Notes under the pieces: generated by a model | Seen by the model: only the letters and a program-made list of their open reading frames with translations | Databases searched by the model: none | What the model was told of the DNA's origin: nothing | From: Candidatus Latescibacterota bacterium | GTDB taxonomy: Bacteria > Latescibacterota > UBA2968 | NCBI GenBank assembly: GCA_965207885.1 | Contig: OZ242311.1 | Coordinates: forward strand, 5,312,001-5,376,000 | Direction: 5' to 3' | DNA length: 64,000 nucleotides | Program-made: the position numbers and the translations under genes | Shown: piece after piece, positions 11,970-29,420 of the stretch | How positions within the stretch are numbered: position 1 is the first letter of the stretch | Layout: each line of letters opens with the position of its first letter

Positions 11970-11970
11970 T

Positions 11971-13320
11971 TTATTTTTCAGCCTCTGGAGAAAGCGCGGC
12001 CAGGTCGCGCAATTGCCGCAGTGGATTGAGTGCGAGCATCAAAATGGACTGGCGGTCTGTTATGATTTCTGCCGCGCCCTTCATGCCAAACATAAATGCT
12101 TTTTCCTCGCCGTGTACAAGAATGGTCGTGTACTCCAGATCAATAATGCCTCTAAACACAGTTCCCGAACCGTCATCGCCCATTGCGTCAGGTGAAATCT
12201 GTCTCAAATAGCCGTGCTGGATGCCGTAGTCCTGAAATGGAAATGCTTCAAATTTGAGCTTTACCTTTTGTCCAGATGACAGCAGGCCCACGTCTTTATT
12301 TAATATCAGGGCTTCGGCTACAATCGGCGTCGAGGCCGGTGCAATAGTTACCAGTGTCTGGCCTTTATTGACCACTTGACCTGGTGTATTGACCAGAACT
12401 TGTGTGACGATTCCCGGTTCAGGTGCAAGAATTAGATCGATGTCTGCATCAACAGATCGATTAACCGTTTGTTTCGCTTGTTTGAGTCTGATTTCTGCAA
12501 TGTCATAAGCATTTTGGAAGTTTGCCCGAGTGCGTTCGAGTTCGAGTCGTTCTTCGAGAATTTGGCGTTTTAAGTCCTTTAGGGAAACCTCATAACGATT
12601 GATCTCTGCCATCCGCGCGGGCAGTTCTGCCAATGCGCTCAGATAGCGGACTTTGGCTTCATCGCGTGCCGCAAGGCTGATGAGTCTCTTTTCGTACAAT
12701 TTTTGGTTTTGTTCATATTGTTGTTTCAAATGTTCTACTTCTGCGGAACGGAATTGTATTTCGATCTCAAGGTCGGGGGGTTGAGACGTTTCTGTGTGTT
12801 TTCCAAGTGCTTCCCGGTAGGTCTGCATTGCTGTTTGCATGACGTGAACGCGATGCTCAAGCGCGGAGATGGTCTCTTTTGCCAAAATTCTTTTTTGCGG
12901 CAGGGTTTGTTGCAGATCAAATTCTGCTTTTTTGAATGCGATTTCTGCTTGTTCCAGTTCGCGGAACTCCTTGAGGGTTTCTTGCGAGCGGAGTCTGAAT
13001 AAGATCTGCCCTTCAGCAATCAGGTCCCCCGAATGGATAGCGATTTCCTGGATTTCGCCAGAACGCGGTGCCTGGATGTTCTGAACCTTTCCCAATGGGA
13101 CCAGACGAAATGGGGCTGTTGCGACAACATCGACCTGACCGTACCAGGCCCATGCTATGGAGATGGCAATAAAAAGCAGCAGAATATAAATAAGCGCGCG
13201 GCTGAAAAAAGGGTGTAATGATCCTAAAAACTCGATGGTGCTTTCGGCCAAATCCGTTTCGTTTTCAAGCGGTTTTTCGCGTGGTTCTATTGGCAATTTT
13301 TCAATTTGAGCTTCGGCCAT
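11971..13320 (-). CDS. HlyD family type I secretion membrane fusion protein
   Basis: N-terminal TM helix, coiled-coil middle, ILAPEPG, LKFEAFPFQDYG, GMKGAAEIIT. Confidence 0.92.
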   Translation of the reverse strand: MAEAQIEKLPIEPREKPLENETDLAESTIEFLGSLHPFFSRALIYILLLFIAISIAWAWYGQVDVVATAPFRLVPLGKVQNIQAPRSGEIQEIAIHSGDLIAEGQILFRLRSQETLKEFRELEQAEIAFKKAEFDLQQTLPQKRILAKETISALEHRVHVMQTAMQTYREALGKHTETSQPPDLEIEIQFRSAEVEHLKQQYEQNQKLYEKRLISLAARDEAKVRYLSALAELPARMAEINRYEVSLKDLKRQILEERLELERTRANFQNAYDIAEIRLKQAKQTVNRSVDADIDLILAPEPGIVTQVLVNTPGQVVNKGQTLVTIAPASTPIVAEALILNKDVGLLSSGQKVKLKFEAFPFQDYGIQHGYLRQISPDAMGDDGSGTVFRGIIDLEYTTILVHGEEKAFMFGMKGAAEIITDRQSILMLALNPLRQLRDLAALSPEAEK

Positions 13321-13358
13321 TGAAATTCCGTTTTTTGTAATGTGTTAGCACGCTCGCG

Positions 13359-16325: not shown

Positions 16326-16358
16326 GATGTTTTCCAGCCCCGCTTTGCATAAAGTCTT

Positions 16359-16931
16359 TTACTCAGCTTCAAATACACGCCACTTTGAGTCGGGTGACTT
16401 CTTGAGCACTGTCTTGTCCGAAAGCAGAACCTGAAATATGTATCGACTGCCATTAACAGGCATCTGTGCATGGACTGAATAGCAACGCCGGCACGCCTTT
16501 ATCTTGATCTCTGTGTCACAGGGGATACAGTCCATGTGTCCTGAAGGGTTTCTTTTACATCGCAGGCACTCAATTTGTTCGATCAGGTTTTTGTTCCGTT
16601 CCTGGTATTTCACCAACTCGCCAGGAGCTATCATGGCACCTATATACTCCAGACCTGCAGAGTGACACTCTTTGCAGTACCATCCTGAAAAGTCGCCGTA
16701 CACGAGTTGACAATTACCACATATGGAAATGTACTCCACATCTGGCTCGCGATTCTCAAAACGCCTGAAGTATGCCAGAATATCGGCCTTATCATCATCG
16801 GACAATTTCTCAAATGGCTGTAGTTTGGATCCACACTCCTGGCAGGGGTCGCCAAAGAAACGTTTTGCCCAGAGACCACCAATTCCCAGGACTACAATAA
16901 TGAGAATGGTCAAAATAATAAACGCTTCCAC
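16359..16931 (-). CDS. membrane-anchored Cys-rich protein with six CxxC motifs (probable multi-zinc-ribbon)
   Basis: N-terminal hydrophobic helix. CQEC, CGNC, CKEC(H), CLRC, CIPC, CRRC. Confidence 0.65.
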   Translation of the reverse strand: MEAFIILTILIIVVLGIGGLWAKRFFGDPCQECGSKLQPFEKLSDDDKADILAYFRRFENREPDVEYISICGNCQLVYGDFSGWYCKECHSAGLEYIGAMIAPGELVKYQERNKNLIEQIECLRCKRNPSGHMDCIPCDTEIKIKACRRCYSVHAQMPVNGSRYIFQVLLSDKTVLKKSPDSKWRVFEAE

Positions 16932-17074
16932 AGTAGGGTCCTCTTGTCAGTGTTTATTGCTATGTCCTCTGCCCTACGGGTTTTCGTCTCTATCCATCTG
17001 TGTCCATCTGCATAAAACGCTCAAATGGACCGCTGCGCAATTATACACCGTTCACTCGCGTTTTTTTTGCGGAT

Positions 17075-18430
17075 CTATTCAATCAATTCTTTGACATCGT
17101 GAATGCGAATATCAACCTCAGGCAAGTGTTTATTCAGAATGTCTATGATGTAATCTTTCGGACCGAGAAAAAGCATGATCATATTCTCCTGTACAAAGAA
17201 TTTTTCGAGAAAAGCTCGCACCTCAACATCGGTGACGGAATCATAACCGCCTTTGTGAGTTGGCGAATTATAGATGGCTTGATATACCTCATTGTCCAGT
17301 CTTCGCTGTAGTGTCAACAACTCATGAGCATAGATGACATTGCGACTTTCACGCAACTCTTTTATTGCCGCCCAAAAGCGGGGATTGTCGGGCAGTTTTC
17401 GGATGAAATCGGACATTTTTACGATCAACGCTTCACTATTATGGAATTGAGGATCAGCAAAAATTTCAAGAAACATGATTCCCTCTGATGATGACAAATT
17501 GCAAGAAGGGCCATAGACCAATCCCAACTCTTCTCTGAAATGTGTATTGAGCAAGCCTTGAGTACCATATCGTACAAGTATCCTGGATATCATTTTTGGA
17601 ATATAGCTCTCTTCTTTTTCTAAATTTCCACAAGGTATCAGCCAAAAACAAAAAATACTTTTTACGCCTGAAAAATTAAATACAAAAGCTGTAGGACCGA
17701 TATTATAATCCGTTATTGGAAATTTCGGTGAATGCACAAACCCCCCTGCCTGTCCGTGTTGCAGCAAGTGGGTCTCTCGCTTTTCTATAACTGGACGAAG
17801 TAGTTTCGAGATCTCAGTAGAATCGAGGTCTGAAATCACCTTAAAAAACACCACGTCTGTTTTCAGCAGTTGATCATAATATTGCGTGATGTCCTTAAGC
17901 GAGAGATTTTTGAGCGTTTTTAAAGATATATGTTTCTTTATGCCTTTTGTTTTTGAAAGTGCAAAATTTTTTATAAACGTATAATCCCGCAGGTAAGCCC
18001 GGTAATCAGCAACCAGCCCTTTTTTTATATCTTGTAATTCAGACTCAGAAAACTCGAGATTATATATGAAATCGCGGACTATTTTTATAGATCTGCCACT
18101 ATTCTCAGATAAGCCATAAATGGATATTGTTCGGTATAGGGTATTAGTAGTGATATTCAGACGAGTACCTAATGCTTCTAATTGATCCATATACCCCTGC
18201 TTTTGGACAGCCTTCCAGATCAATTGTGAGACTACCATTGCAAGCCCAGCTTGATATGGCTGTTCCGCACCGCTCCCAGCTCCGAGGAAGATAATCTCAA
18301 TTTTGGTCAATGGCGCGCGTTTGTCCTGGCGATAAAAAATTTGGTGGTTAGGTATCTCTGCAAAAGCGGGCAGGATACTAACCACGCAGCACAGAGCAAA
18401 ATTAAGTATCACTTTCAGAAACATATTCAT
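17075..18430 (-). CDS. M16 peptidase, non-catalytic subunit, with signal peptide
   Basis: M16 features (GSGAE...AGLA; FREELGLVYG) without HxxEH. N-terminal Sec-like signal ending PAFA. Confidence 0.75.
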   Translation of the reverse strand: MNMFLKVILNFALCCVVSILPAFAEIPNHQIFYRQDKRAPLTKIEIIFLGAGSGAEQPYQAGLAMVVSQLIWKAVQKQGYMDQLEALGTRLNITTNTLYRTISIYGLSENSGRSIKIVRDFIYNLEFSESELQDIKKGLVADYRAYLRDYTFIKNFALSKTKGIKKHISLKTLKNLSLKDITQYYDQLLKTDVVFFKVISDLDSTEISKLLRPVIEKRETHLLQHGQAGGFVHSPKFPITDYNIGPTAFVFNFSGVKSIFCFWLIPCGNLEKEESYIPKMISRILVRYGTQGLLNTHFREELGLVYGPSCNLSSSEGIMFLEIFADPQFHNSEALIVKMSDFIRKLPDNPRFWAAIKELRESRNVIYAHELLTLQRRLDNEVYQAIYNSPTHKGGYDSVTDVEVRAFLEKFFVQENMIMLFLGPKDYIIDILNKHLPEVDIRIHDVKELIE

Positions 18431-18549
18431 TGGTCTTTCGAGAGAACTTCCTACGTAAATTTTTTATCTATAAACAGTGTGACAAGACCACCCAGCAGCG
18501 TTAGAAAATCTACGCCTGTCAATATCATAATTCCATAGTGTAAGGATGT

Positions 18550-19887
18550 TCACGGAGGTGACATTTTCTTTTTTGACACCGTTAGAGAATAGGTTATGGA
18601 ATTGTCATCCGTCATGTACTGGTCTATAATGCGAGGGATGTCTTCTCTGCGAATGGATTTGAGGTCTTTTATCAATTTGGGATATAGGAGGGGATCGTTG
18701 GCGTGGGCAAATGCCTGTCCAAATGAATAAGCCATGTTTGAACGGTTGTAAAATGCGGAATACATTGTGGTCAACTGCTGGTTTCGAGCCGTATTGAGTT
18801 CTGCGTCGGAGATGGATTTCAGATTCTCCAACTCTTTGCTGATCATGTTCTGGAACCTATTTCTGGACGTATCATAGGGTAGTTCTGCATAGCAATGCAT
18901 CAAGCTAAATCCTTTATAGCTGCTGAGTTCCACCTGAAAAACACTTGCGAGCTTAGAACCAACGACGGTAGATCGCAAAGAATTTGAGGACTTATCCAAG
19001 ATATAGTCCAGAATAAGCAGGCCAGCGTAGTCGCGATGTCCTAAATTGGGTGTGTACCAGCCCTTTCTGAATATAGTAACAATGAGATTTTTTAAAGTGT
19101 GTTTTAATCTTTTTCCGAGCACTTCACGGTTCGGATATTGGGGAGAATACGGTTTGCTCGGTATTTGCTCATTGCCATAAGCTTCGTCCAATTTTTTCAA
19201 GACCTGGTCAACATCCACATCGCCGATCACGACAATCAGTCTCTTTTGACGGCGCAGAAAATTCTCATAATACGCTTTCAAATCATCAGATTCGAGTTGT
19301 GTAATAAAAGCCTCAGTACCAAGGTCATTAAAATTCTTTTTTTTGTAAATTAAAGAAAAAAAAGAATTCTTGTGTCTAAGTTTTAAACTTGATAATCTAT
19401 GACTTCTTTCCGTCAGTACGATTTTCTTTTCTTTTTTTATAATTTCCTCATTGATCACTGTGTTGTAATATCTTTCCGAATCTATCTTAACCGCGAGATC
19501 AAACTTATCCTTCGGAAATTTTAGTATAAAGCATGTAAAATGATAATCAGTAAAGGCTTTTTGTTCTCCTTCATTATCTGCGATAATTTGATTGAGTTTC
19601 CCCGGCGCATAGCTGCCAATGCCCGCTATGACATGCTCTAAAAAATGTATCCGTCCTTGTTGACCTTCCTCTTCATCTGCCGAGCCAGCATCATAAAAGG
19701 TATGGTATTCAAAGGTTGGGATTGTTCGATCTACAACAATAACAGCGTCGAGGTTGGGATTGATGGTATAATATTGCGCGACGAGTTCTTCAGATAATGT
19801 GGCTGTGCCAACAAGATCGTAGGCAACGCAAATGCCCGTTGGCAAGACGCATACAAGGAATGAGGTGAGTGCGTAAGTTTTCATCAT
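18550..19887 (-). CDS. M16 (pitrilysin/insulinase) zinc peptidase, catalytic subunit, with signal peptide
   Basis: AGSADE...G.IHFLEH inverted zinc motif, EKKIVLTE. Hydrophobic N-terminus. Confidence 0.85.
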   Translation of the reverse strand: MMKTYALTSFLVCVLPTGICVAYDLVGTATLSEELVAQYYTINPNLDAVIVVDRTIPTFEYHTFYDAGSADEEEGQQGRIHFLEHVIAGIGSYAPGKLNQIIADNEGEQKAFTDYHFTCFILKFPKDKFDLAVKIDSERYYNTVINEEIIKKEKKIVLTERSHRLSSLKLRHKNSFFSLIYKKKNFNDLGTEAFITQLESDDLKAYYENFLRRQKRLIVVIGDVDVDQVLKKLDEAYGNEQIPSKPYSPQYPNREVLGKRLKHTLKNLIVTIFRKGWYTPNLGHRDYAGLLILDYILDKSSNSLRSTVVGSKLASVFQVELSSYKGFSLMHCYAELPYDTSRNRFQNMISKELENLKSISDAELNTARNQQLTTMYSAFYNRSNMAYSFGQAFAHANDPLLYPKLIKDLKSIRREDIPRIIDQYMTDDNSITYSLTVSKKKMSPP

Positions 19888-20059: not shown

Positions 20060-20656
20060 TCAGTTACCTACTCTCGTATTATCTTGTCCGGTTGTCTCAA
20101 ATCCATCAAAAAGTCCATTCTCATCCTCCTCACCCCCCTCATCATTGGTACCACAATTACCATCACAATTCTCATCATCACAATTCTCACAATTCTCATT
20201 ATCATCTTCTCCCTCACCTTCTCCCTCACCTTCTCCCTCACCACAATCCCCACTGTCGCCATCCTCTGGTCCTGCCATCTGATCACTATAAAAAAACTCC
20301 TCAGCAGCATCTGGATTAACAGGCTGGTTTATTTGCGTCCAGTCGGGTAACTGATCCCCTTCCCTATACATCTCGAGTGGTGATATCTGTGGTCCATTGT
20401 CCCCAAAATTAGGTGATGGTGGTAGCCCAGGTTCAGGAGAACCAAAAACAGAGGTGACAATATCCCAGATGGTAGGTCCCGTGTTCCAATCTATTGGGTC
20501 TTCATCTTTGCATTTACTTTTCCCCCCATCCCCACCCCGAGCCATGTTCATTTCTTGTATTGAAATGGTCTCGGAGAGGATAGAGAGCGGTTTACAAGTA
20601 AGTCCTGTAATGGATGTGGTGATACCTTCACTCTGTTCAGAAATATTTTTTGACAT
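20060..20656 (-). CDS. 198-aa acidic, Cys-containing double-glycine-leader protein (putative PCAT substrate / RiPP precursor)
   Basis: TAGGAG RBS. I31-S-x-x-E-M-x-x-A-R-G-G42 is in exact register with the LSxxELxxIxGG leader consensus. Acidic C-terminus with (GE)6 and an xNC-repeat segment. Confidence 0.75.
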   Translation of the reverse strand: MSKNISEQSEGITTSITGLTCKPLSILSETISIQEMNMARGGDGGKSKCKDEDPIDWNTGPTIWDIVTSVFGSPEPGLPPSPNFGDNGPQISPLEMYREGDQLPDWTQINQPVNPDAAEEFFYSDQMAGPEDGDSGDCGEGEGEGEGEGEDDNENCENCDDENCDGNCGTNDEGGEEDENGLFDGFETTGQDNTRVGN

Positions 20657-20667
20657 AATACTATCTC

Positions 20668-21538
20668 CTAGGTAGTGTCTGAAAAGTAAGCTTTGAAGAG
20701 TTGTCTGATACAGGCCAGCTTGACCATAGTGAGAAAATGAGTCGCCTTTTTTTCAAATCGGGTCACAATCCGTCGGCAGTGTTTAAGCCAACCAAAGAGA
20801 CGCTCCACGATATTGCGTTTGGCATATAATCTTTTATCACACTTAGGCCGTGGTCCTCTCTTACGCCGTTTTCTGCCTTTGGGAATCGCCTTGTTTGGGA
20901 TAGCAGCCTTGATACCCCGTTTGCGTAGATAGACTCTGATGCGTGAGACATCATAAGATTTATCAGCTACCAGATACTTGGGTCGGTTTCTTGGACGCCC
21001 TCGTTTGGTGGGTATGCATACCTTTGACAGTAGCCTTTCAGCCTGTGTGGATTCTGACTGGTTACCAGGGAGAAGATCCACTGCTAAAGGATGCCCGACT
21101 GCATCGCAAAGAAGATGGATTTTCGTGGTCAAACCGCCACGAGAGCGTCCTAAAGCGTGATCTGGGGGCTCTTCTTCACCCTTTTTGCCCTTTTTTTTTC
21201 GCTCCTGCCGCGGCTTGTGTGGCTCGAATATGGGTTGCATCCATCATCCAGGTCGCATAATCTAAAAGACCATCTTCACCCAATTTGAGATGTAGCTTTT
21301 CTACAATGCGATCAAAGGTGCCATCCTGTTTCCATTTGCAGAATCGGTCAAAGGCTGTCTGCCAAGGACCATATCGTTCTGGCAGGTCGCGCCAAGCTGC
21401 ACCTGAACACAATATCCAGAAGATCCCGTTGAATAATGTACGATCATCCCGACGGGGACGACCCATCTTCTTCGGCGGTGGGAACAGGTCTTGGATCAGA
21501 TGCCAAGCCTCGTCGCGCAGTTCATATCTCCGTTGCAT
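20668..21538 (-). CDS. IS5-family transposase (ORF A 21176..21538 and ORF B 20668..~21200, joined at an A9 run)
   Basis: GRPR.DDR..FNGIFW.L.SG..WRDLP.RYGPWQT; GRSRGGLTTKIH; VADKSYD; RNIVER.F..LK..RRI.TRFEK. Confidence 0.92.
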
Positions 21539-21642: not shown

Positions 21643-22586
21643 TCACTTAAGAAATTTTGCTGTCTCGCCATCTTTACACGTACGATCTCTGTCGTGAAAA
21701 AATAGAAAGTTGCGAAAAAACGTATTGACGATTGTCATATAACAGGCATTCTGTTTTCTTTTTTGAGCTTCTGGTGGAAGATCCGTGAACTCCTGGATGC
21801 GCTCAGGTGTCACCCCATGGATGTCGCGAATGGTATTGAACAGACCAATCAGATCTGTTTCACAGCAGTTATTCGCTTTAGCCAGCACGCTCAAATACAC
21901 ATCATCAACATGCGATAATGCCTTTGCAATTCGGGTGCGAGTCTCACTGACAGACTGAACATCCGAAAGCCTATCAGGCGCATCCCAACACGGTGTCACG
22001 GATTTGATCTTACGCAGCACGGCCAGATGGTGGTCTTCGCGGATAATCTCCACAGCAAAACTACTGGGATAGACGGACAGCCAGTTCTCGACAATTTGCT
22101 TCTCATAAGACCTTCTGAAATCGTCCAGAATGACCAGACCACCAATCTTGATCTGGTCATAAACCTGGTAAAGGCATGCCTCCCGACCTCGCAAGGTATA
22201 GACTGGCGGACCATCAATAACCACGCAATCTATCTCTTCCTTCCAAAACACCCCATCTTCATAAGTCAAAAATTCCGTATCTCCATAAGATTCAAGGGTA
22301 ATTGGACGATGTTTGATCGATAGATTGCGCTTATCCCAGAATGTTTGCATCAGACTCAGGGTCTCTGCAAAATTCCGCCAGTCGCCTTCTATAGACAGAA
22401 CCTCGGTTCCAAAAACGCCATCGCCAGACGGATAGAACTCGGACCACTTCCAAATTCGAGAATTCTTTCTACTGGAGACATCTGAAGAAGCGTGGTTGCG
22501 ATTCTCTCAAACGCTGTCTCACCAATGCTCCAGCCCGCGTCCAGATTAAGCCGATCCGGTATTTTGAGGTCGGAAATTTTATGCAT
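21643..22586 (-). CDS. class I SAM-dependent methyltransferase (Methyltransf_24-like), split by a 1-nt frameshift near 22412
   Basis: ILEFGSGPSS motif I in ORF 22389..22586. One extra T in the T5 run continues into GTEVLSIEGD...VVIDGPP...GGLVILDD in ORF 21643..22350. Confidence 0.8.
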
Positions 22587-22589
22587 GCC

Positions 22590-24032
22590 TTACTTCTTTA
22601 CTTCAGATACCACTTCCAGATCATATCGTCGCTGCAACAAAGACGCATCTTCCTCTGCAATCTCCATACACATCTCCATCGCCAATTCATAGCGATAGCG
22701 CGTCTGTTCACAAGCAACAGGGTTGGGATACATCGGATCACCCGTTGTCGTCCGCGCCTCCCAAAGACATCCGCCACCACACAGGTTGCGCGCCCAGCAC
22801 GTCTTGCACTCAGGACGATTATTCACATTGAACTGCGCGTCAAAATGCTGCTGCTTTTCGCGGTCAATACCCGCAAACACATCACCCATCTTAAACTCGG
22901 GCGCATCGGCCAAACTCGAACAAAAATAAATCGACCCATCTGCTGCAATAGCCAGATACTGCTTGCCACCCAGGCATCCATGACAGGATTTCTGGCGCGT
23001 CAACAGTTTCTGAATCCGCGGATCAAACTCTTCACTCTCTTCACCATTTAGAATGGCTTTGAGCGCACGCCTACTCCGCTTGTAAATTTGCTGCTTCAAC
23101 GCAGGTATGTGTTCTTCCCGAATCGCATAAGGCGCATCCGGTGAAACAACAGCCGGACCAACAAGCGCGTTATCAGTACCCAGAGAACGCAACGCATCGG
23201 CAATCTGATCCTCGTCCATATCATACGCTGTCATAACAGCCTGCAAATACACCCTCTCGGGAACCTCAGCAGTCAATTTCTGTACATTCTTTGCCACAAC
23301 ATCATAAGTGCCAGAACCATTGTGAAACTTGCGAATGCGGTCCTGTGTCTGACGCCCACCATCCAGACTGACCTTAATTTGAAACTTTTCATCAACCAAA
23401 AACTGCTTCATCTCGTCGGTCAACAACGTGCCATTGGTCACAATGCCAAAACCAACCTGCACACCCAATCGCGCTGATAGGGATTTGGCAAATGGGACAA
23501 GCTCCTGCATCAATGGAAAATTCAGAAGCGGCTCTCCGCCAAAAAAATCAATCTGGCATCGTCCCAATACCTGAGCCTCGGCAACAATCCAGCGTATGGC
23601 TTGCTCGGCAACATCTATTTGCATCAGCATCGCCTTACCGCCATAATCTCCACCGTGGGCAAAGCAATAAGCACACTGAATATTGCAAGTATGGGAAACG
23701 TGCAAAGACACCTGCAACCGATCTGTCTGCGATACGCCACAGGCTGCCACCCCTTCTGTCGTCGGCACACTGGATACCAGAGGCAAAGCACCATCCGAAA
23801 TCAAACCCACCTGGGACAGTTCCTCAATGGCCTCGACAATTTCTTCTGCCTCGTATTGATCAGCCAACCTCTGAACAACCTGCGAAACAGACAAACCCTC
23901 GCAACACTCTAAAATCGCCTCGAAAAGAGTATCCAATTTAAAAAATAGACCCGTCTCAATCTGATAGACAATCGGTTGTTCTTGCTCTTCTGTTTGAAAA
24001 AGATGCATTTCACATTTCTGAATGCACAGCAT
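22590..24032 (-). CDS. radical SAM/SPASM peptide maturase with N-terminal RRE-like domain (CteB/PapB/QhpD-like)
   Basis: LHVSHTCNIQCAYCFA (CxxxCxxC), IDFFGGEPLLN, VTNGTLL, VSLDG. SPASM C..CLGG...FC...CKTCWARNLCGGGC...C. GAGGAG RBS 8 nt before ATG 24032. Confidence 0.93.
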   Translation of the reverse strand: MLCIQKCEMHLFQTEEQEQPIVYQIETGLFFKLDTLFEAILECCEGLSVSQVVQRLADQYEAEEIVEAIEELSQVGLISDGALPLVSSVPTTEGVAACGVSQTDRLQVSLHVSHTCNIQCAYCFAHGGDYGGKAMLMQIDVAEQAIRWIVAEAQVLGRCQIDFFGGEPLLNFPLMQELVPFAKSLSARLGVQVGFGIVTNGTLLTDEMKQFLVDEKFQIKVSLDGGRQTQDRIRKFHNGSGTYDVVAKNVQKLTAEVPERVYLQAVMTAYDMDEDQIADALRSLGTDNALVGPAVVSPDAPYAIREEHIPALKQQIYKRSRRALKAILNGEESEEFDPRIQKLLTRQKSCHGCLGGKQYLAIAADGSIYFCSSLADAPEFKMGDVFAGIDREKQQHFDAQFNVNNRPECKTCWARNLCGGGCLWEARTTTGDPMYPNPVACEQTRYRYELAMEMCMEIAEEDASLLQRRYDLEVVSEVKK

Positions 24033-24056
24033 AGCACGCACTCCTCAAAACCCAAA

Positions 24057-24245
24057 TCACTTAGCCTGATCATCAACCTGTTCGAAATCGTCCCAATCGT
24101 CATCATCGGGAAAGGGCAGAGGGGGAACGCCAAAATCACCGGAGGGACAGAGCACTTCAAAACTATGCACAGTTTGGTACATAAGGATGCTACCTTCTTG
24201 ATCTATCGTTCCATTGATCAAAGTCAACTTACGTCGCGTTGTCAT
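24057..24245 (-). CDS. 62-aa putative RiPP precursor peptide
   Basis: AAGGAG RBS. First gene after the sigma54 promoter, directly upstream of the rSAM. Leader RRKLTLINGT, single CPSGD, acidic tail. Confidence 0.78.
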   Translation of the reverse strand: MTTRRKLTLINGTIDQEGSILMYQTVHSFEVLCPSGDFGVPPLPFPDDDDWDDFEQVDDQAK

Positions 24246-24291
24246 GTTACTCTCCTTGATAATGCAAAAATCTTAGATGCCGTTACTATAT

Positions 24292-24308
24292 TGCAAGATC
24301 CGTGCCTA
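24292..24308 (-). promoter_or_regulatory. sigma54 (-24/-12) promoter
   Basis: Minus strand TAGGCACGGATCTTGCA versus consensus TGGCACG-N4-TTGC(A/T). About 47 bp upstream of the precursor ATG and adjacent to a GAFTGA activator. Confidence 0.85.
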
Positions 24309-24323
24309 AAATCGCCTCAGCAC

Positions 24324-24355
24324 AAAAAAAAGCACTTGAAAATGCTCAAGTGCTT
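24324..24355 (-). terminator. intrinsic terminator-like hairpin between the activator gene and the sigma54 promoter
   Basis: Perfect 10-bp IR AAGCACTTGA-N6-TCAAGTGCTT followed by a T-run on the minus strand. Confidence 0.6.
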
Positions 24356-24498
24356 GAAAAACAAAGAGATAAAATTTAAAAATTATTTGTATTGTAAATG
24401 CGGCATCCAAATATATGTGTATCTAATAGATACGCATATAACCGTTCATTTAGGCAAAATATGTATAAATGATTGATTAATATAAAAATAAATTAAAG

Positions 24499-24533
24499 TG
24501 CATCTAAATGATACATTGTCACAAAATGATACA
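24499..24533. promoter_or_regulatory. tandem enhancer-like (UAS) sites for the sigma54 activator
   Basis: TGCATC-TAAAT-GATACA and TGTCAC-AAAAT-GATACA, 18-bp period, about 200 bp upstream of the -24/-12 box across an AT-rich spacer. Confidence 0.6.
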
Positions 24534-24545
24534 TTCGTTCAATAT

Positions 24546-27500
24546 CTATCTCAACCCCAAACGATTCATCTTTCTATACAAGCTGGCACGCACCAACCCC
24601 AGTTCTTCGGCCGTACGCTTAATATTACCCTCGTATTTTTCGAGCGCATCCATAATCAACCGTCTCTCATACTCCTGCATACGATCTTGTAAACGCCCTC
24701 CTGCTTGCGTGTGGGCATCCGCCCGTGCAGACAAGTGATATTCGACAAAGATACCCGACACAGCGTGAATGACAGCTTCTGAAAACAAATCAGGCGTAAT
24801 ATCACCCTCTTCTTCTGACAATGCTACCGCACGTCGAATTTCATGCTCCAACTCGCGCACATTACCAGGCCAGTTGTAACTTGTGAGTGCCCTGATTGCA
24901 CCCACTGTCAACCCTCCAACCGACTTTCTTGCCTCTTCTTTTGCTCGAATGAGCAGATGTCCAGCCAATAATGGCACATCTTCAAGGTGTTCTCGTAAAG
25001 GTGGCATATCGATCTGAATCCCGTGCAACCGGTAATACAAATCTTCGCGGAAAGAACCGTTTTCAACTTCTTTTTTTAAGTCTCGATTGGTCGCTGCAAT
25101 AATGCGTACATCCACTTCGCGATCCTCTGTTTCTCCCACACGCCGAATCTCACCTTCTTGCAACACCCGCAACAAACTTCTTTGCAACTGCGGCGGAGCA
25201 TCGGCGATTTCATCGAGAAGAACCGTGCCCCCATCAGCCGCTTCAAAAATCCCCTTATGATCTTCACTCGCGCCAGTAAACGCGCCTTTTTTGTGCCCAA
25301 ACAACTCACCCTGCAACAACTCTGGTGATAGTGTAGCACAATTTTGTGACAAAAATCGTTGATCTTTGCGCCTGCTATTGTAGTGTATGGCACGCGCAGC
25401 CAACTCTTTGCCCGTACCTGTTTCGCCCTGCACAAGTACGGGAATATCACTTTGTGAAGCGCGTTCGATAAGCTGGTAAACCACCTGCATAGCATCACTC
25501 TGCCCGACCAGATCATCAAGCCGGTACCGCCTTTCGACCTGTTGCTGAAAATATTGTGCTTTCTCTTCCAGTTGTTCATACATCCTCGCATTGACCAGCG
25601 CCAGCCCCACCAGATTCGCAAAAGCCTGTAAAAACGTCTGATCTGCTTCAGAAAATGCGTTGTCAATACCGCGATGATCCACATATAGCGCACCGATAAC
25701 ACCTTCCTTAACATGAAAAAGAGGCACACACAATACAGACCGAATGTGGTAGTCTATCACGCTCTGATACCGATTTAATCTTTCGTCTGTCTGGGCATCC
25801 ATGCTCAAAACGGGTTCATTGGTCTCAATAACGCGGCGAATAATACCCCGACTCAGTTCTTCTGCATCATCTGCTTCTACATTGTAGTAGCGCACGGCAT
25901 CAACCACAAAGCCTTTTGGGGTCTCATTTTTAATCGCAATAAGCACCCGCTCTGCTGGATAGACAGCCAACAAATTACCCAGAGTTCGATCCAATAACAC
26001 CTTGACATCGCGCTCTGTGGTCAATTCGTGGCTCACTTCGTAAAGCAAGCTCAAACGATCGACAGACAATGTATCGACTGAAATCCCAGAAATAGATGCG
26101 GCACCTGCTTGCGCGATAGCAGGCAAGTCCTCCTTGCGAGAAGATTTATCCAATTGATTTAATAAAATCCGTGTTTTCTCCAGAAAATAAGACATCTCCA
26201 TCTCTTCAAACGCCTGTTTTGCCGCTTCAAGATGTACTTGCGCTTTTGGTACATCATCGCGCTCGAGATAAAACTCCCCTGCTATCAACAGCGCACGCGC
26301 CCAGTGATCGCCTTTAGATTCTCTTCGGCATTCAATCGCCTGCTCAAAAGCCTCTTCAGCCTCAGCTATCCGCCCTGCATGAGCAAAAGCCGCACCAATA
26401 CCACAATACACCAAGGGCAATATGCCCGTGAACATACCCGATGTTTGTTGCGTACCTTCACTGGCTTTTTCTGCCCATTCAAATGCTGTTTCTGTATCTC
26501 CCATTCTCGCAGCAACCGTTGCCGCAATCGCATAAGCGCGATAGATATAATCTCTTCGCGATATTTGCAAAAACCCCTCCACCGAGGTCTCGGCATATTC
26601 CAATGCCTCGGCAAAATCACCGCGTTCCAGTGCCAATTCTCCCAGATAAAGGAAATTCACTGCCTCCCCATACACAAGTCCTTGCTTCCTCCACTCACCA
26701 ATGACCTCATAGCAAACGGCTTCTGTACGGGTGAGATCTCCCAGATAAAAATAAACCCTTTGAAGCGAATTAAGTGCCCCAATGCGATGATGTTCAAATC
26801 CAAGCTGTTGAGATGTTTTTACAGCCACTTCTAGATATTCTTTGGCTGTTTCAAATCGAAAGTCCACCAATGCAGCTTGACCTTCTCGAACTTGTATAAA
26901 AGCGTCTTTCTGCGGATCTATCAACACACGACGTTTCTCTATTTCCAGACGCATATACTCAAGTGCTTCTTTGTGCCGTCCAGATACATCGCACAAATAA
27001 GCCAAACTGCCCAATGCTTGAACTTCTCCGTCGAGATCATCCAGTTCACGATAAAGTCGCAATGCCTCCAGCATATATTCTTTTGCAATTTCTCCATGTT
27101 GAAGTACGCTGTGAATACCACCTTCATTCCACAAAATACGCGCTTTCAAATCTCTCCGGTCATCGGGCAATAACGCCTTTGCCTCGCCTAAAAGTTCCAA
27201 TGCTTTATTGTGTTGACCACAATTGCGCAACGTATCTGCATAATCGCACAAAAAGTCGATAGCATTTACTTGTGATTCAAAAACGCCATCCGCCTGCTGT
27301 ACAGCCTCAAACCGTCTCAATGCCTGGCGATAAGCGTGTTTTTCCAATGCTTTTTTGCCCGCCATGAGCGTATATTTCACAGCCTTATCTCGTTCTTCTG
27401 CCGCCGCAAAATGATTCGCCAATTCTTCTATCAATTCTTCTGCATCTTCCGAATCTTCCAGAGCATTGCCAATTTCTCGATGCAACAACCGCCGCCGCAC

Positions 27501-29420
27501 ATCTTGCATGCGGTCGTAAATTGCACGCCGACACAACTCCTGTGAAAACCGATATCGATCTTCAGCCTCTCCACAAGCCTCCAAAAGCCCTTCTGCAATA
27601 AGATAGTCCAGCACATCTAACAGTTCTAACTCATCACCGCGCCAAACTGCGGCCAATAGTTCAAAAGAAAAATCACTCAGAAAAACACAGGCGTATTCCA
27701 GCACCCGACGTTGCACAGCAGGCAGAGTAGCTACGCGCCTGTACAAAACCTCTAAAATGCCATCAGACAACAGGGTTTCGGGAAATTCTCCCCACTGCCA
27801 ATCGCCGGACACATTCTGCCAAACCACATCGGCATTGACCAGTGTCCTCATTGCCTCTAAGACAAACAGGGGTTGTCCACCCGTTTCTCTGAATAGGGTT
27901 TGCAAGGCATCAGAAGGTATGGACCGCTCCCCCAACATCGATGCCGCTAAATATCCCACCTCTTCTTGTTGTAAATACTCCAACTGAATCTGAGTCGCCT
28001 CAGCAAGTTCATTGCTGTGTATAAAATTCTCAATTTCCTCTGAAAGCGGTTCCAGGTTAGACCATCGACAAGTCAGGCATAACAAAAACGGACACGGTTC
28101 TGGATCGCGCAACACATACTGCAAAAATTCCAGAATCAATTCATCAAGCCATTGAATATCTTCCAAACTCAATACAATGGGCTGTTTCTGTCGCAGACGC
28201 TTTAATAACTGCGACCAATGCTCCATAATAGAAAACTTGTCCGTCTCTAATGAATCGGGCACTCTCCCCACCAAATCCGTCGTCTTTACCTGCTGAAAAG
28301 CATCAATTAACGCACCGTATATTTGTCCGCCCTCTTCTCGTCCTGCACCTTTCAAACACAGAAAATCATGGATCAAAGCATCGCCCAAGAGTTCTTCAAT
28401 CAGTCTCGTTTTACCCACACCAGACTCACCCGAGATCAGAACTACGCGCTGTTTGCCAGCCTGTACATCCTGCAACATCGCACCCAGTATCTTCATTTCA
28501 GATTCCCGCCCGACAAATTGTGGGCGCACAACTTTTCTATGCACATCGCGCTGCTCGTCCTCCAGCAGCACAAGTTCCGATGGTGCTACATTATTTAAGG
28601 CTTGCACCAACTCCCCTGCCGATTGATAACGATCAACACGATCCTTTGCCAGCAACCTCAGCACAATTTGTTTCATCTGTTCGGGAACAGCGATATTGAC
28701 TTCGTCTATTGGTAGCGGCATCTTTCGAATATGCTTCAGAATAACTGATATGGGATTTTGTCCAGAAAAGGGCGATGCGCCCGTGAGCATCTCGTATAAA
28801 ATCACGCCCAATGAGTACAAATCTGACCGATGATCCACCCACAACCCTTTACCCTGCTCTGGCGACATATATTCTGCTGTACCAATCGTTGCACCCGTCT
28901 GAGTAATGGAAGCACCGTGCAAATGCCTGAATTTCGCCAGCCCCAGATCCAGAATCGTGGTCTCAATCCCCTCTTCTGTTTCCAAAACCATAATATTGGA
29001 TGGCTTGAGATCGCGATGCACCGCACCCTGAGCGTGGACATAAGCCAACCCCTCGGCAATTTGTTGTATCAAATCAAAAAAGTGAGACGCCCGAAATTGC
29101 TCTAACAGTACACGATCAGCAATTATCTTTTCCAATGTCTTTCCGGGCAAATATTCCATTGTAAAATAGGGGCGATCTTCGGCAAAGCCCCAAGTATATG
29201 TGCGCACCAGGCGCGGGTGCTGAAATCTGTTCAACACTTGAAATTCTCTGTGAAAACGGCGGTACACAGCCTTCTGATCCACCATGGTATTCAAGATTTT
29301 GAGCGCGCACTCCTGGCCTTGCTCCAGGTCTAACACCCGATAGACTTCGCCCATGCCCCCGGTTCCCAGGTGCGCCTGGATTTGGTATTTGTTGTCGAGA
29401 ATGGTGCCGATTGCAAACAT
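24546..29420 (-). CDS. 1624-aa Ser/Thr kinase - AAA ATPase - TPR - GAF - sigma54 interaction - Fis HTH transcriptional activator
   Basis: GTGGMGEV, ALK, HRDLKPSN, DLG, GTAEYMSPE. FVGRESE..GESGVGKT (AAA_16-like). Helical TPR region. GAF (RSVLCVPL). GETGTGKE, GAFTGA, WPGNVRELE and C-terminal HTH. Confidence 0.92.
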   Translation of the reverse strand: MFAIGTILDNKYQIQAHLGTGGMGEVYRVLDLEQGQECALKILNTMVDQKAVYRRFHREFQVLNRFQHPRLVRTYTWGFAEDRPYFTMEYLPGKTLEKIIADRVLLEQFRASHFFDLIQQIAEGLAYVHAQGAVHRDLKPSNIMVLETEEGIETTILDLGLAKFRHLHGASITQTGATIGTAEYMSPEQGKGLWVDHRSDLYSLGVILYEMLTGASPFSGQNPISVILKHIRKMPLPIDEVNIAVPEQMKQIVLRLLAKDRVDRYQSAGELVQALNNVAPSELVLLEDEQRDVHRKVVRPQFVGRESEMKILGAMLQDVQAGKQRVVLISGESGVGKTRLIEELLGDALIHDFLCLKGAGREEGGQIYGALIDAFQQVKTTDLVGRVPDSLETDKFSIMEHWSQLLKRLRQKQPIVLSLEDIQWLDELILEFLQYVLRDPEPCPFLLCLTCRWSNLEPLSEEIENFIHSNELAEATQIQLEYLQQEEVGYLAASMLGERSIPSDALQTLFRETGGQPLFVLEAMRTLVNADVVWQNVSGDWQWGEFPETLLSDGILEVLYRRVATLPAVQRRVLEYACVFLSDFSFELLAAVWRGDELELLDVLDYLIAEGLLEACGEAEDRYRFSQELCRRAIYDRMQDVRRRLLHREIGNALEDSEDAEELIEELANHFAAAEERDKAVKYTLMAGKKALEKHAYRQALRRFEAVQQADGVFESQVNAIDFLCDYADTLRNCGQHNKALELLGEAKALLPDDRRDLKARILWNEGGIHSVLQHGEIAKEYMLEALRLYRELDDLDGEVQALGSLAYLCDVSGRHKEALEYMRLEIEKRRVLIDPQKDAFIQVREGQAALVDFRFETAKEYLEVAVKTSQQLGFEHHRIGALNSLQRVYFYLGDLTRTEAVCYEVIGEWRKQGLVYGEAVNFLYLGELALERGDFAEALEYAETSVEGFLQISRRDYIYRAYAIAATVAARMGDTETAFEWAEKASEGTQQTSGMFTGILPLVYCGIGAAFAHAGRIAEAEEAFEQAIECRRESKGDHWARALLIAGEFYLERDDVPKAQVHLEAAKQAFEEMEMSYFLEKTRILLNQLDKSSRKEDLPAIAQAGAASISGISVDTLSVDRLSLLYEVSHELTTERDVKVLLDRTLGNLLAVYPAERVLIAIKNETPKGFVVDAVRYYNVEADDAEELSRGIIRRVIETNEPVLSMDAQTDERLNRYQSVIDYHIRSVLCVPLFHVKEGVIGALYVDHRGIDNAFSEADQTFLQAFANLVGLALVNARMYEQLEEKAQYFQQQVERRYRLDDLVGQSDAMQVVYQLIERASQSDIPVLVQGETGTGKELAARAIHYNSRRKDQRFLSQNCATLSPELLQGELFGHKKGAFTGASEDHKGIFEAADGGTVLLDEIADAPPQLQRSLLRVLQEGEIRRVGETEDREVDVRIIAATNRDLKKEVENGSFREDLYYRLHGIQIDMPPLREHLEDVPLLAGHLLIRAKEEARKSVGGLTVGAIRALTSYNWPGNVRELEHEIRRAVALSEEEGDITPDLFSEAVIHAVSGIFVEYHLSARADAHTQAGGRLQDRMQEYERRLIMDALEKYEGNIKRTAEELGLVRASLYRKMNRLGLR

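What the first reader, a model, noticed from the sequence alone, without database searches (positions are those of the whole stretch)
24057..24245. 62-aa precursor with a SCIFF/CteA-like leader and a single PapB-type Cys-X3-Asp site
Seen: MTTRRKLTLINGT...EVLCPSGDFGVPPLPFPDDDDWDDFEQVDDQAK, with a strong RBS, first gene after the sigma54 promoter and directly upstream of the rSAM. Known: the SCIFF precursor CteA begins, as I recall, MKHIKILNGS, which resembles RKLTLINGT, and that segment binds the CteB RRE. PapB crosslinks CX3D motifs. Inference: CPSGD is a one-ring ranthipeptide site. WDD/FPD triplets are alternative cyclophane (triceptide) sites. With only one Cys and no GG leader, it does not look like SCIFF, freyrasin or QhpC.
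Basis: partly seen in the sequence, partly recalled or inferred. Interest (0 to 1): 0.8.

Follow-up and report, generated by a model that had tools for sequence, protein, structure and literature searches.

The report
New radical-SAM peptide precursor family
The 62-residue gene is a real, conserved precursor peptide that an adjacent radical-SAM enzyme probably cross-links, and it belongs to an undescribed family in uncultured marine Latescibacterota, but the proposed Cys-X3-Asp site is not the conserved feature.

Summary
The ORF is real: 24057-24245, minus strand, with an AAGGAG RBS, a sigma-54 promoter and the rSAM/SPASM gene 24 nt downstream. It is coding. There are 3 paralogues in this genome, copies in 15 of 20 other genomes of the genus, and 148 database relatives. 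dN/dS is 0.27 in the leader and 0.11 in the anchor, and the Cys is invariant.

The rSAM falls in the SCIFF/QhpD/PapB clade but is below every curated cut-off. A complex model places leader residues 5-13 on the RRE strand and Cys33 beside auxiliary-cluster cysteines (ipSAE 0.84, best control 0.02). This may echo the solved CteB-CteA structure.

Asp at Cys+4 occurs in only 16 of 137 family members. The conserved core is C-x6-[VI]P-x2-[PS]FP followed by an acidic tail. The six-residue loop is hypervariable (96 variants, dN/dS 0.97). The leader shows no detectable sequence similarity to SCIFF leaders.

Every locus with upstream sequence has a roughly 1,600-aa kinase-STAND-TPR-GAF sigma-54 activator upstream. 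Only its residues 797-895 co-vary with the peptide loop (Mantel rho 0.52, p 1e-4), which hints that the regulator reads the peptide.

Verdict: a new variant of the ranthipeptide-like kind. The cross-link acceptor is unknown.

The parts
24057..24245 (-). 62-aa precursor peptide. Leader is about residues 1-32 (MTTRRKLTLINGTIDQEG.I..Y). Cys33 is invariant. Residues 34-39 form the hypervariable 6-residue loop. Residues 40-46 (VPPLPFP) are the conserved anchor. Residues 47-56 form the acidic tail DDDDWDDFEQ.
24252..24257 (-). Ribosome-binding site AAGGAG, 6 nt before the ATG
   Evidence: GGAG RBS in 37 of 37 copies
24292..24306 (-). Sigma-54 -24/-12 promoter element GGCACGGATCTTGCA
   Evidence: rpoN in genome
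24322..24355 (-). 11-bp-stem hairpin followed by a T-run, between the activator sites and the promoter. Conserved in all three paralogous loci.
24405..24545 (-). Upstream activator region with three imperfect palindromes of the TG(T/C)ATC...GAT(A/G)CA type (for example 24412-24440). The arrangement is the same but the sequence differs in the two paralogous loci.
   Evidence: inferred to be EBP binding sites
24546..29420 (-). 1,624-aa regulator: Ser/Thr kinase, AAA_16/STAND NTPase, MalT-like TPR, GAF, sigma-54 AAA+ activator domain and Fis-type HTH
   Evidence: found upstream of the peptide in 30 of 31 close loci
26736..27032 (-). Regulator residues 797-895, at the start of the MalT-like TPR region. 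This is the only part of the regulator whose divergence tracks the peptide loop.
22590..24041 (-). rSAM/SPASM maturase with an N-terminal PqqD-like RRE. CX3CX2C motif at C119/C123/C126, plus seven more invariant Cys in the SPASM part. Probable true start is the ATG at 24032.
21643..22586 (-). Frameshifted class-I methyltransferase-like gene, in 65-aa and 235-aa pieces. It is intact (302 aa) in the paralogous locus L011 and in 11 of 31 related loci.

Best explanation
The ORF encodes the precursor of an undescribed, lineage-restricted RiPP family. Relatives' records are titled Candidatus Latescibacterota MAGs, and the sequencing runs that hold it are labelled sponge or coral metagenomes.

Shown:
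- The gene is conserved and under purifying selection.
- It always sits between a giant sigma-54 activator and an RRE-containing rSAM/SPASM enzyme of the SCIFF/QhpD/PapB (thioether-forming) clade.
- It has an invariant single Cys followed by a fixed-length hypervariable hexapeptide and an invariant [VI]P-x2-[PS]FP anchor.

Modelled, not shown:
- Leader residues 5-13 pair as a beta-strand with the RRE.
- Cys33 reaches the auxiliary cluster I cysteines (C356, C374), as in CteB-CteA.

Inferred:
- The rSAM abstracts a hydrogen from an acceptor residue at or beyond the anchor and joins it to the Cys33 sulfur. This would give one thioether macrocycle that encloses the variable loop.
- The acceptor is not the Cys+4 Asp. 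Candidates are the conserved V/I at Cys+7, the Pro at +9 or +11, or the Asp run from +14.
- Transcription is switched on by the adjacent kinase-STAND-TPR-GAF activator acting through three upstream palindromes and the sigma-54 promoter.
- In one lineage of the module a methyltransferase-like protein may add a further modification. That gene is broken in this window.
For: Conservation and coding signal:
- Three paralogous modules lie in the genome.
- The family is present in 15 of 20 other genomes of the genus, at 2-3 copies each.
- 148 database proteins match.
- Over 36 distinct DNA copies, dN/dS is 0.27 in the leader, 0.11 in the anchor and 0.97 in the loop. The Cys codon is TGT in 29 copies and TGC in 7.

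Core architecture:
- 137 of 138 unique peptides match C-x(5-6)-[VI]P-x2-[PS]FP, and 134 of these have x6.
- There are 96 distinct loops.
- A second subfamily, found next to rSAMs 49-53% identical, keeps the leader pattern L-x-x-[IV]-N-[GA]...G-x-I and the core C-x6-[ILV]-L-P-P-P, but has no acidic tail.

Enzyme:
- Pfam finds Radical_SAM, SPASM and PqqD domains.
- The best NCBIfam hits are SCIFF 267, QhpD 258, nif11 253 and PapB 229 bits.
- The closest solved structure is CteB, 5wgg, E 1.5e-61.

Binding model:
- ipSAE was 0.84 against a best control of 0.02. In the tool's calibration the mark was reached by 58 of 80 solved complexes and 2 of 110 mismatched pairs.
- The runs agree in at least 52% of their contacts, and the partner pLDDT is at least 48.
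- Those counts hold only roughly here, because my own alignments and riding ligands were used.

Regulation:
- Promoter and RBS are present in 37 of 37 copies, and rpoN is in the genome.
- The big activator is upstream in 30 of 31 close loci.

Expression:
- Contigs from RNA libraries labelled sponge metatranscriptome, at least 85% alike, cover the rSAM. In 2 of 4 runs laid (X18, X23) they run into the peptide ORF.
- This is only a weak hint, because contigs cannot prove transcription.
Against: - No chemistry was seen. The thioether, its acceptor and even whether any ring forms are inferences from the enzyme clade.
- The rSAM is below every curated equivalog cut-off, so its reaction may differ from those of CteB, PapB and QhpD.
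- The complex model may reproduce the solved CteB-CteA complex from memory. It places only residues 33-34 of the core with confidence.
- No protease or exporter is conserved with the module, so maturation and destination are unknown.
- In this window the methyltransferase-like gene is frameshifted and an IS5 element follows it. This copy of the module may therefore be decaying, although the peptide, rSAM and activator frames are intact.
- In 5 of 28 loci fetched in full, the longest activator frame is only 695-1374 aa.
Confidence: 0.7

Rival explanations
1. CPSGD is a one-ring PapB-type site, and the rSAM links the Cys33 sulfur to the beta-carbon of Asp37 (CX3D).
For: This copy does have Asp at Cys+4. 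PapB-type maturases are among the top HMM hits at 229 bits. PapB is reported to be tolerant of substrate changes (abstracts of PMC9413430 and PMC10739248).
Against: Asp at Cys+4 occurs in only 16 of 137 family members; Trp (33), Thr (21) and Pro (19) are all commoner there. The two paralogues in the same genome have Ser and Thr at that position, next to rSAMs that are 93-94% identical. The PapB model score of 229 is below its cut-off of 340.
Confidence: 0.06
2. A large-ring carboxylate variant. Cys33 is linked to one of the near-invariant Asp residues after PFP (Cys+14 to +17), as QhpD and PapB link Cys to Asp or Glu. The ring would have 14-17 residues and enclose both the loop and the proline anchor.
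For: D48, D49 and D50 are at least 90% conserved. The residue after PFP is Asp in 108 and Asn in 26 of 137 members. The enzyme's nearest characterised families act on Asp or Glu (QhpD 258 bits, PapB 229 bits).
Against: The subfamily served by rSAMs 49-53% identical lacks the acidic run altogether, yet it keeps Cys-x6-[ILV]-x-P-x-P. The tail does not co-vary with anything tested. The model gave no confident placement of the tail.
Confidence: 0.2
3. A carbon-carbon cyclophane (triceptide-type) cross-link at F-P-D or W-D-D, rather than a thioether.
For: F45 is invariant and Trp is present in 107 of 137 tails. Both sit in aromatic-X-X triplets.
Against: The cyclophane-forming families score far lower than the thioether families: YhhB 89 bits, FxsB 75 bits, against SCIFF 267. 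Trp is Arg in 12 members and Gly in 2, and the motif is absent in 16. The invariant Cys, placed at auxiliary cluster I in the model, would be left unexplained.
Confidence: 0.05
4. Modification of the Cys itself without ring formation, for example anSME-like oxidation to formylglycine, or some other chemistry.
For: Anaerobic sulfatase maturase is a detectable relative (117 bits; 4k36 E 2e-16). Pro is common at Cys+2, in 93 of the 134 six-residue loops.
Against: The anSME score is less than half that of the thioether families. The sulfatase motif Arg at Cys+4 occurs in only 8 of 137 members. The enzyme has an RRE and the peptide has a leader, which anSME systems lack (the anSME point is from general knowledge).
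Confidence: 0.05
5. Not a substrate at all: a small regulatory protein or peptide ligand of the adjacent activator that merely shares an operon with the rSAM.
For: The peptide loop co-varies with regulator residues 797-895 and not with the rSAM.
Against: The gene order peptide-then-rSAM with a 15-25 nt gap holds in all loci that have the sequence. The enzyme has an RRE domain. The complex model is confident only for the true pair. The two roles are also not exclusive.
Confidence: 0.04

Closest known systems
SCIFF system CteA/CteB (thermocellin) of Clostridia
   Same: A two-gene precursor-plus-maturase core. The maturase is an RRE-rSAM-SPASM enzyme, and CteB (5wgg) is the closest solved structure at E 1.5e-61. 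In the model, the leader lies as a beta-strand on the RRE and a Cys sits at auxiliary cluster I. This matches what passages of the review PMC8326336 describe for CteB-CteA. No dedicated protease or exporter is conserved with the module.
   Different: There is one Cys rather than six. There is no C-x-x-C-rich core. The maturase scores 267 bits against a cut-off of 425 and is only about 30-33% identical to SCIFF maturases. The precursor profiles are unrelated (probability 0.14%). The phylum differs. Control is by sigma-54 and a giant activator.
Freyrasin PapA/PapB
   Same: The maturase belongs to the thioether-forming rSAM/SPASM clade (229 bits). This copy has one C-x3-D.
   Different: PapA carries six CX3D motifs (abstract of PMC9413430). 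Here there is a single Cys, and Asp at +4 occurs in only 16 of 137 members. The score is below the cut-off of 340.
QhpC/QhpD (quinohemoprotein amine dehydrogenase gamma subunit maturation)
   Same: QhpD is the second-best HMM hit (258 bits). It forms Cys-Asp and Cys-Glu thioethers (review passage), and acidic residues are conserved here.
   Different: The score is below the cut-off of 453. No amine dehydrogenase genes are seen among the neighbours examined. The substrate is a short leader-bearing peptide, not an enzyme subunit.
Peptide-sensing TPR regulators and quorum-sensing-controlled rSAM peptides such as streptide
   Same: An rSAM-modified peptide is encoded next to a TPR-containing regulator. 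Streptide production is under quorum-sensing control (review passage). SCIFF ranthipeptides have been linked to quorum sensing (Chen et al. 2020; I saw this only as an entry in that review's reference list).
   Different: The regulator here is a 1,600-aa kinase-STAND-TPR-GAF sigma-54 activator, not an Rgg or RRNPP protein. That RRNPP receptors bind peptides through TPRs is recalled, not tested here. Binding of the peptide to the regulator was not tested either.

Membership tests
Ranthipeptide (radical non-alpha thioether RiPP) | Maturase is an rSAM/SPASM enzyme of the SCIFF/QhpD/PapB clade with an RRE | tested here: met
   Pfam finds Radical_SAM, SPASM and PqqD. The top NCBIfam hits are all thioether maturases, although each is below its equivalog cut-off. 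The closest solved structure is CteB.
Ranthipeptide (radical non-alpha thioether RiPP) | Cys sulfur linked to a beta or gamma carbon of an acceptor residue | not testable with these tools
   Needs MS/MS and NMR of the modified peptide.
SCIFF (TIGR03973 precursor / TIGR03974 maturase) | Six Cys in about 45 residues, with the conserved C-terminal Cys-rich core | tested here: not met
   119 of 137 members have one Cys. No NCBIfam hit for the peptide at E<=0.01. hhalign against 9 SCIFF precursors gave probability 0.14%.
SCIFF (TIGR03973 precursor / TIGR03974 maturase) | Maturase above the equivalog cut-off | tested here: not met
   266.7 bits against a cut-off of 425.
PapB/freyrasin | Conserved C-x3-D (or E) acceptor motif | tested here: not met
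   Asp at Cys+4 in 16 of 137 members. The paralogues in the same genome read CPSGS and CPSWT.
PapB/freyrasin | Maturase above the equivalog cut-off | tested here: not met
   229 bits against a cut-off of 340.
QhpD/QhpC | Maturase above the equivalog cut-off | tested here: not met
   258.2 bits against a cut-off of 453.
Triceptide / three-residue cyclophane RiPPs | Maturase of the XyeB/YhhB/FxsB type | tested here: not met
   YhhB 89 bits against a cut-off of 445; FxsB 75 bits against 370.
Sigma-54-dependent operon | GG at -24 and GC at -12 with canonical spacing, rpoN in the genome, and an enhancer-binding protein with an AAA+ sigma-54 domain nearby | tested here: met
   Transcription from this promoter itself was not shown.
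RRE-dependent RiPP precursor | Leader segment recognised by a PqqD-like domain of the maturase | tested here: inconclusive
   The PqqD domain scores 23.9 bits against a cut-off of 23.4. The complex model gave ipSAE 0.84 against a best control of 0.02, with residues 5-13 on rSAM residues 31-37. This is a model that may lean on the solved CteB-CteA complex, not a binding measurement.
SRCR domain (PF00530) | Match to the family profile | tested here: not met
   0 of 115 peptides hit Pfam SRCR at E<=10. hhalign against 46 diverse SRCR domains gave probability 10% and P 0.003.

The most novel reading that the evidence does not exclude
The activator-peptide-rSAM triad is a self-contained peptide-sensing circuit. 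The hypervariable six-residue loop, presented in a thioether ring, is the specificity determinant. It is read by residues 797-895 of the TPR sensor of its own giant STAND-type sigma-54 activator. The 2-3 paralogous modules per genome would then be separate 'pherotypes' or feedback loops.

A bolder addition: the conserved leader and the acidic W-D-D tail align, in order and with the Cys in register, to the first 37-39 residues of metazoan SRCR domains. The peptide could therefore derive from, or imitate, a host-type SRCR fragment.
Probability: 0.25. Interest if true: 0.85.

Novelty: new variant of a known kind. Interest (0 to 1): 0.62.

Why it matters
- It defines a precursor family that no library or paper I could search names. 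Pfam, NCBIfam and the ESM Atlas gave no meaningful match for the peptide, and two literature searches gave no hits. Papers that run antiSMASH on sponge-associated Latescibacterota list only generic 'ranthipeptide' clusters (passages of PMC12993501 and PMC11832590).
- The core design is unusual for the thioether rSAM clade: one invariant Cys, a fixed-length hypervariable loop, a proline anchor and an acidic tail. It is a natural library of at least 96 loop variants on one scaffold, which is useful for enzymology and peptide engineering.
- Pairing with a kinase-STAND-TPR-GAF sigma-54 activator, and the segment-specific co-variation with the loop, would make the open question of what ranthipeptides are for directly testable.

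Tried and rejected
- SCIFF-like leader homology: rejected (hhalign probability 0.14%).
- CX3D as the family site: rejected.
- Double-glycine leader: Gly-Gly precedes the Cys in only 32 of 137 members and not in this copy. I did not pursue a link to the C39 exporter downstream.
- SRCR homology: the hit in the 1.8-billion-protein search (E 7e-8) comes from five near-identical repeats of one scallop protein, so the E-value is inflated. Against those repeats alone hhalign gave probability 64% and P 6.7e-5. Pfam SRCR matched 0 of 115 peptides. Against a diverse SRCR profile hhalign gave only probability 10% and P 0.003; 2 of 300 column shuffles reached the observed score. I keep it as an unexplained resemblance, not a finding.
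- ESM Atlas: no usable hit.
- Conserved partners downstream of the rSAM: none is universal. Of 31 close loci, 11 have the methyltransferase-like gene intact, 3 have remnants of it, 10 have a small activator plus a UvrD-like helicase, 1 has the acidic protein plus M16 peptidase, and 6 have none of these within the flank.
- Loop class on trees: 7 changes on the tree of regulator segment 797-895 (2 of 1000 label shuffles gave 7 or fewer), against 9 on the tree of the rest of the regulator (62 of 1000). The difference is modest and rests on few independent events.
- RNA evidence: RNA-library contigs show no cover upstream of about 24325 in the 4 runs laid. Contigs of relatives at 85% likeness cannot show a transcript start, so I draw nothing from this.
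Supplements of papers were not requested.

Full report
**1. Observation**

An AAGGAG lies 6 nt before the ATG. A sigma-54 type element, GGCACGGATCTTGCA, lies at 24292-24306. It is the only such site in the window, with 0.16 expected by chance. The genome encodes rpoN.

Twenty-four nucleotides after the stop begins an rSAM/SPASM protein with a PqqD-like N-terminus, annotated here as 22590-24041 with a probable start at the ATG at 24032. Upstream, ending at 24546, is a 1,624-aa protein that combines a Ser/Thr kinase, an AAA_16/STAND NTPase, MalT-like TPRs, a GAF domain, a sigma-54 AAA+ activator domain and a Fis-type HTH.

**2. Is the ORF a gene?**

- The same genome holds two more copies of the whole module of activator, peptide and rSAM. 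The peptides are 67-69% identical and the rSAMs 93-94% identical.
- A profile of the three peptides finds 38 places in 16 of 53 genomes of the order. All are in one genus: 15 of its 20 other genomes, with 2-3 copies each. None is found in 32 genomes of ten other genera.
- The public protein collection holds 148 relatives at E<=0.01. None carries a name other than 'hypothetical protein'.
- Over 36 distinct DNA copies, dN/dS is 0.27 in leader codons 1-20, 0.11 in the seven anchor codons and 0.97 in the loop. The Cys codon is TGT in 29 copies and TGC in 7.
- All 37 of 37 distinct copies with enough upstream sequence keep the -24/-12 element 43-65 nt before the ATG, together with a GGAG RBS.
- Contigs from RNA libraries labelled sponge metatranscriptome, at least 85% alike, cover the rSAM and in 2 of 4 runs reach into the peptide ORF. 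This is only a weak hint, because contigs cannot prove transcription.

Records of near-identical loci are titled Candidatus Latescibacterota MAGs. Runs that hold the stretch are labelled sponge, coral or marine metagenomes.

**3. Anatomy of the family**

I compared 138 unique sequences: 120 database proteins, this genome's copies and the copies from genus loci.

- 137 match C-x(5-6)-[VI]P-x2-[PS]FP, and 134 of these have exactly six loop residues. The single miss (P0087) looks frameshifted.
- M1, L7, N11, G12, C33, P41, F45 and P46 are invariant. K6, L9, I10, E17, G18, I20, V40, P44, D48-D50, D52 and F54 are at least 90% conserved.
- The loop has 96 different sequences. Position +2 is Pro (93) or Ser (33), and position +3 is Gly (85), Tyr (29) or Thr (10).
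- Position +4 is Trp (33), Thr (21), Pro (19), Asp (16), Val (12), Ser (11) or Arg (8), among others.
- The tail has Trp in 107 of 137 members, Arg in 12 and Gly in 2.

A second subfamily sits next to rSAMs that are 49-53% identical, in a genus of the sister family (4 of 15 genomes there). It keeps the leader pattern L-x-x-[IV]-N-[GA]-x-x-D-x-x-G-x-I and has the core C-x-W-P-x-F-x-[ILV]-L-P-P-P. It lacks the acidic tail. The features common to both subfamilies are the Cys, the six-residue spacing, an aliphatic residue at +7, and Pro at +9 and +11.

**4. The enzyme**

NCBIfam ranks SCIFF (267 bits, cut-off 425), QhpD (258/453), the nif11-type maturase (253/519), a ScfB-related orphan (239/855) and PapB (229/340). 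Cyclophane formers and sulfatase maturases score far lower.

Database relatives form a clade of their own down to about 37% identity. There is then a gap to SCIFF maturases at about 30-33%. The CX3CX2C motif and seven further Cys are invariant across 100 sequences. The closest solved structure is CteB (5wgg, E 1.5e-61).

**5. Leader recognition**

I ran a complex prediction with the full rSAM, the peptide (both supplied as alignments), three 4Fe-4S clusters and SAM.

- It gave ipSAE 0.84, 0.83 and 0.84 in three runs, against a best control of 0.02.
- In the tool's calibration the mark was reached by 58 of 80 solved complexes and 2 of 110 mismatched pairs. Those counts hold only roughly here, because my own alignments and riding ligands were used.
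- The runs agree in at least 52% of their contacts. The partner pLDDT is at least 48.
- Peptide residues 5-13 touch rSAM residues 31-37, 24, 39-40 and 71-78 (the RRE) and 455-462.
- Residues 33-34 touch 356-358 and 374, which include two invariant SPASM cysteines.

This is the geometry described for CteB with CteA residues 1-21 (review PMC8326336, passages). The pass may therefore reflect likeness to that structure. By sequence the leader is not SCIFF-like: hhalign against nine SCIFF precursors taken from Firmicutes loci gave probability 0.14%.

**6.

The precursor call, the promoter, the RRE-binding segment and 'not SCIFF/freyrasin/QhpC' all hold. The CX3D site does not: Asp at +4 is present in 12% of the family and absent from both paralogues in the same genome. 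The cyclophane alternative fits neither the enzyme clade nor the replaceable Trp.

A loop of fixed length flanked by invariant residues suggests a ring that closes at or beyond the anchor. The data here cannot tell whether the acceptor is the aliphatic +7, a proline, or an Asp of the tail. The acidic tail is missing from the second subfamily, which argues weakly against the Asp run.

**7. Regulation and a possible sensing loop**

The intergenic region has the same layout in all three paralogues: two adjacent palindromes plus a third about 80 bp further on, an AT-rich stretch, a hairpin with a T-run, the -24/-12 element and the RBS. The palindrome sequences differ between paralogues. The big activator is upstream of the peptide in 30 of 31 close loci; the one exception starts at a contig edge.

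Among the three paralogous activators, the least conserved stretches are residues 849-898 and the pre-HTH/HTH end.

I then compared 22 loci that have a full-length activator and a six-residue loop.

- Pairwise loop distance correlates with activator distance only in windows 797-845 (rho 0.37) and 846-895 (rho 0.47). The other 30 windows give rho of 0.17 or less, including windows that are equally variable.
- For residues 797-895 as one segment the Mantel rho is 0.518, and none of 10,000 permutations reached it.
- The same segment gives rho 0.03 with the leader (p 0.39), -0.03 with the tail (p 0.58) and 0.26 with the eight residues before the Cys (p 0.002).
- rSAM windows give rho between -0.11 and 0.21.
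- On trees, loop class needs 7 changes on the segment tree and 9 on the tree of the rest of the protein. Two loci with xPxP loops share a distinct segment allele on unrelated backbones.

This is suggestive of co-diversification between the loop and the TPR sensor. It rests on few independent events and is not phylogenetically controlled.

**8. Context in this window**

The gene after the rSAM is a frameshifted methyltransferase-like gene. It is a 302-aa intact protein in paralogue L011, with a weak Methyltransf_24 match at E 0.003. An IS5 element follows it.

Further downstream, in order, lie:
- a 198-aa acidic protein with a double-glycine-type leader;
- two M16 peptidases;
- a zinc-ribbon-like protein;
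- a cNMP-binding/C39 peptidase/ABC exporter;
- a HlyD-type protein;
- a PPIase.

One other genome has the acidic protein and an M16 peptidase right after its rSAM. This neighbourhood is not part of the conserved module.

**9. Novelty and limits**

I found no name or paper for the peptide family. Two sponge-microbiome papers list only generic antiSMASH 'ranthipeptide' clusters in Latescibacterota (passages). Supplements were closed and might hold cluster tables that include these loci.

I rate this a new variant of the rSAM thioether-peptide kind, with an unusual core design and regulator. The chemistry is unproven.

Noticed in passing
window 21643-22586 (-): The methyltransferase-like gene after the rSAM is split by a frameshift into 65-aa and 235-aa frames. 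The 302-aa intact form is in L011:10193-11101 and has a weak Methyltransf_24 match (E 0.003, below the cut-off). It is intact in 11 of 31 related loci and a remnant in 3.
   Followed up: partly
window 20668-21538 (-): An IS5-family element with two overlapping transposase frames (120 and 190 aa), inserted between the broken methyltransferase-like gene and the acidic-protein gene.
   Followed up: no
window 20060-20656 (-); L058:2141-2614: A 198-aa very acidic protein whose conserved N-terminus ends in ...LSETISIQEMNMARGG, a double-glycine-type leader. The rest is variable and rich in Asp, Glu and Gly. It is a likely substrate of the C39-peptidase ABC exporter downstream. A 157-aa relative follows the rSAM in another genome.
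   Followed up: partly
window 11148-19887 (-): A run of export and processing genes: two M16 peptidases (18550-19887, 17075-18430), a 190-aa zinc-ribbon-like protein, a 988-aa exporter with two cNMP-binding domains plus C39 peptidase plus ABC domains (13359-16325), a HlyD-type protein and a PPIase.
   Followed up: no
window 24057-24245 versus animal SRCR domains (P0258 and 46 others): The family profile aligns to the first 37-39 residues of SRCR domains: L-x-L-[VI]-N-G...E-G-x-I-x-x-Y, then the Cys in register, then DD-x-WDD-x-D-x-A. The loop and proline anchor appear as a 14-residue insertion. hhalign gave P 0.003, and 2 of 300 column shuffles reached the score. Pfam SRCR matches none of the peptides. 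The resemblance is unexplained.
   Followed up: yes
L069, L070, L073, L074, L097-L100: A second precursor subfamily with core C-x-W-P-x-F-x-[ILV]-LPPP and no acidic tail. It sits next to rSAMs 49-53% identical and a related TPR-GAF sigma-54 activator, in a genus of the sister family (4 of 15 genomes).
   Followed up: partly
L076:2746-4041, L077:1216-2502: In two more distant Latescibacterota loci the rSAM (42-49% identical) is followed directly by a second rSAM/SPASM gene only 25-26% identical to it.
   Followed up: no
L107, L112, L113, L116, L123: In 5 of 28 fully fetched modules, the longest open frame of the big activator is only 695-1374 aa. Either some copies are interrupted or the assemblies carry errors.
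   Followed up: no
L010:10376-14708 and 10 related loci: One lineage of the module is followed by a 340-aa sigma-54 activator that has no sensor domain, and by a 1,093-aa UvrD-like helicase with a long N-terminal extension.
   Followed up: no
window 24322-24355 (-): A terminator-like hairpin with a T-run sits between the activator binding sites and the sigma-54 promoter in all three paralogues. It could insulate the peptide operon from read-through from the activator gene, or it could be a bending or binding site.
   Followed up: no
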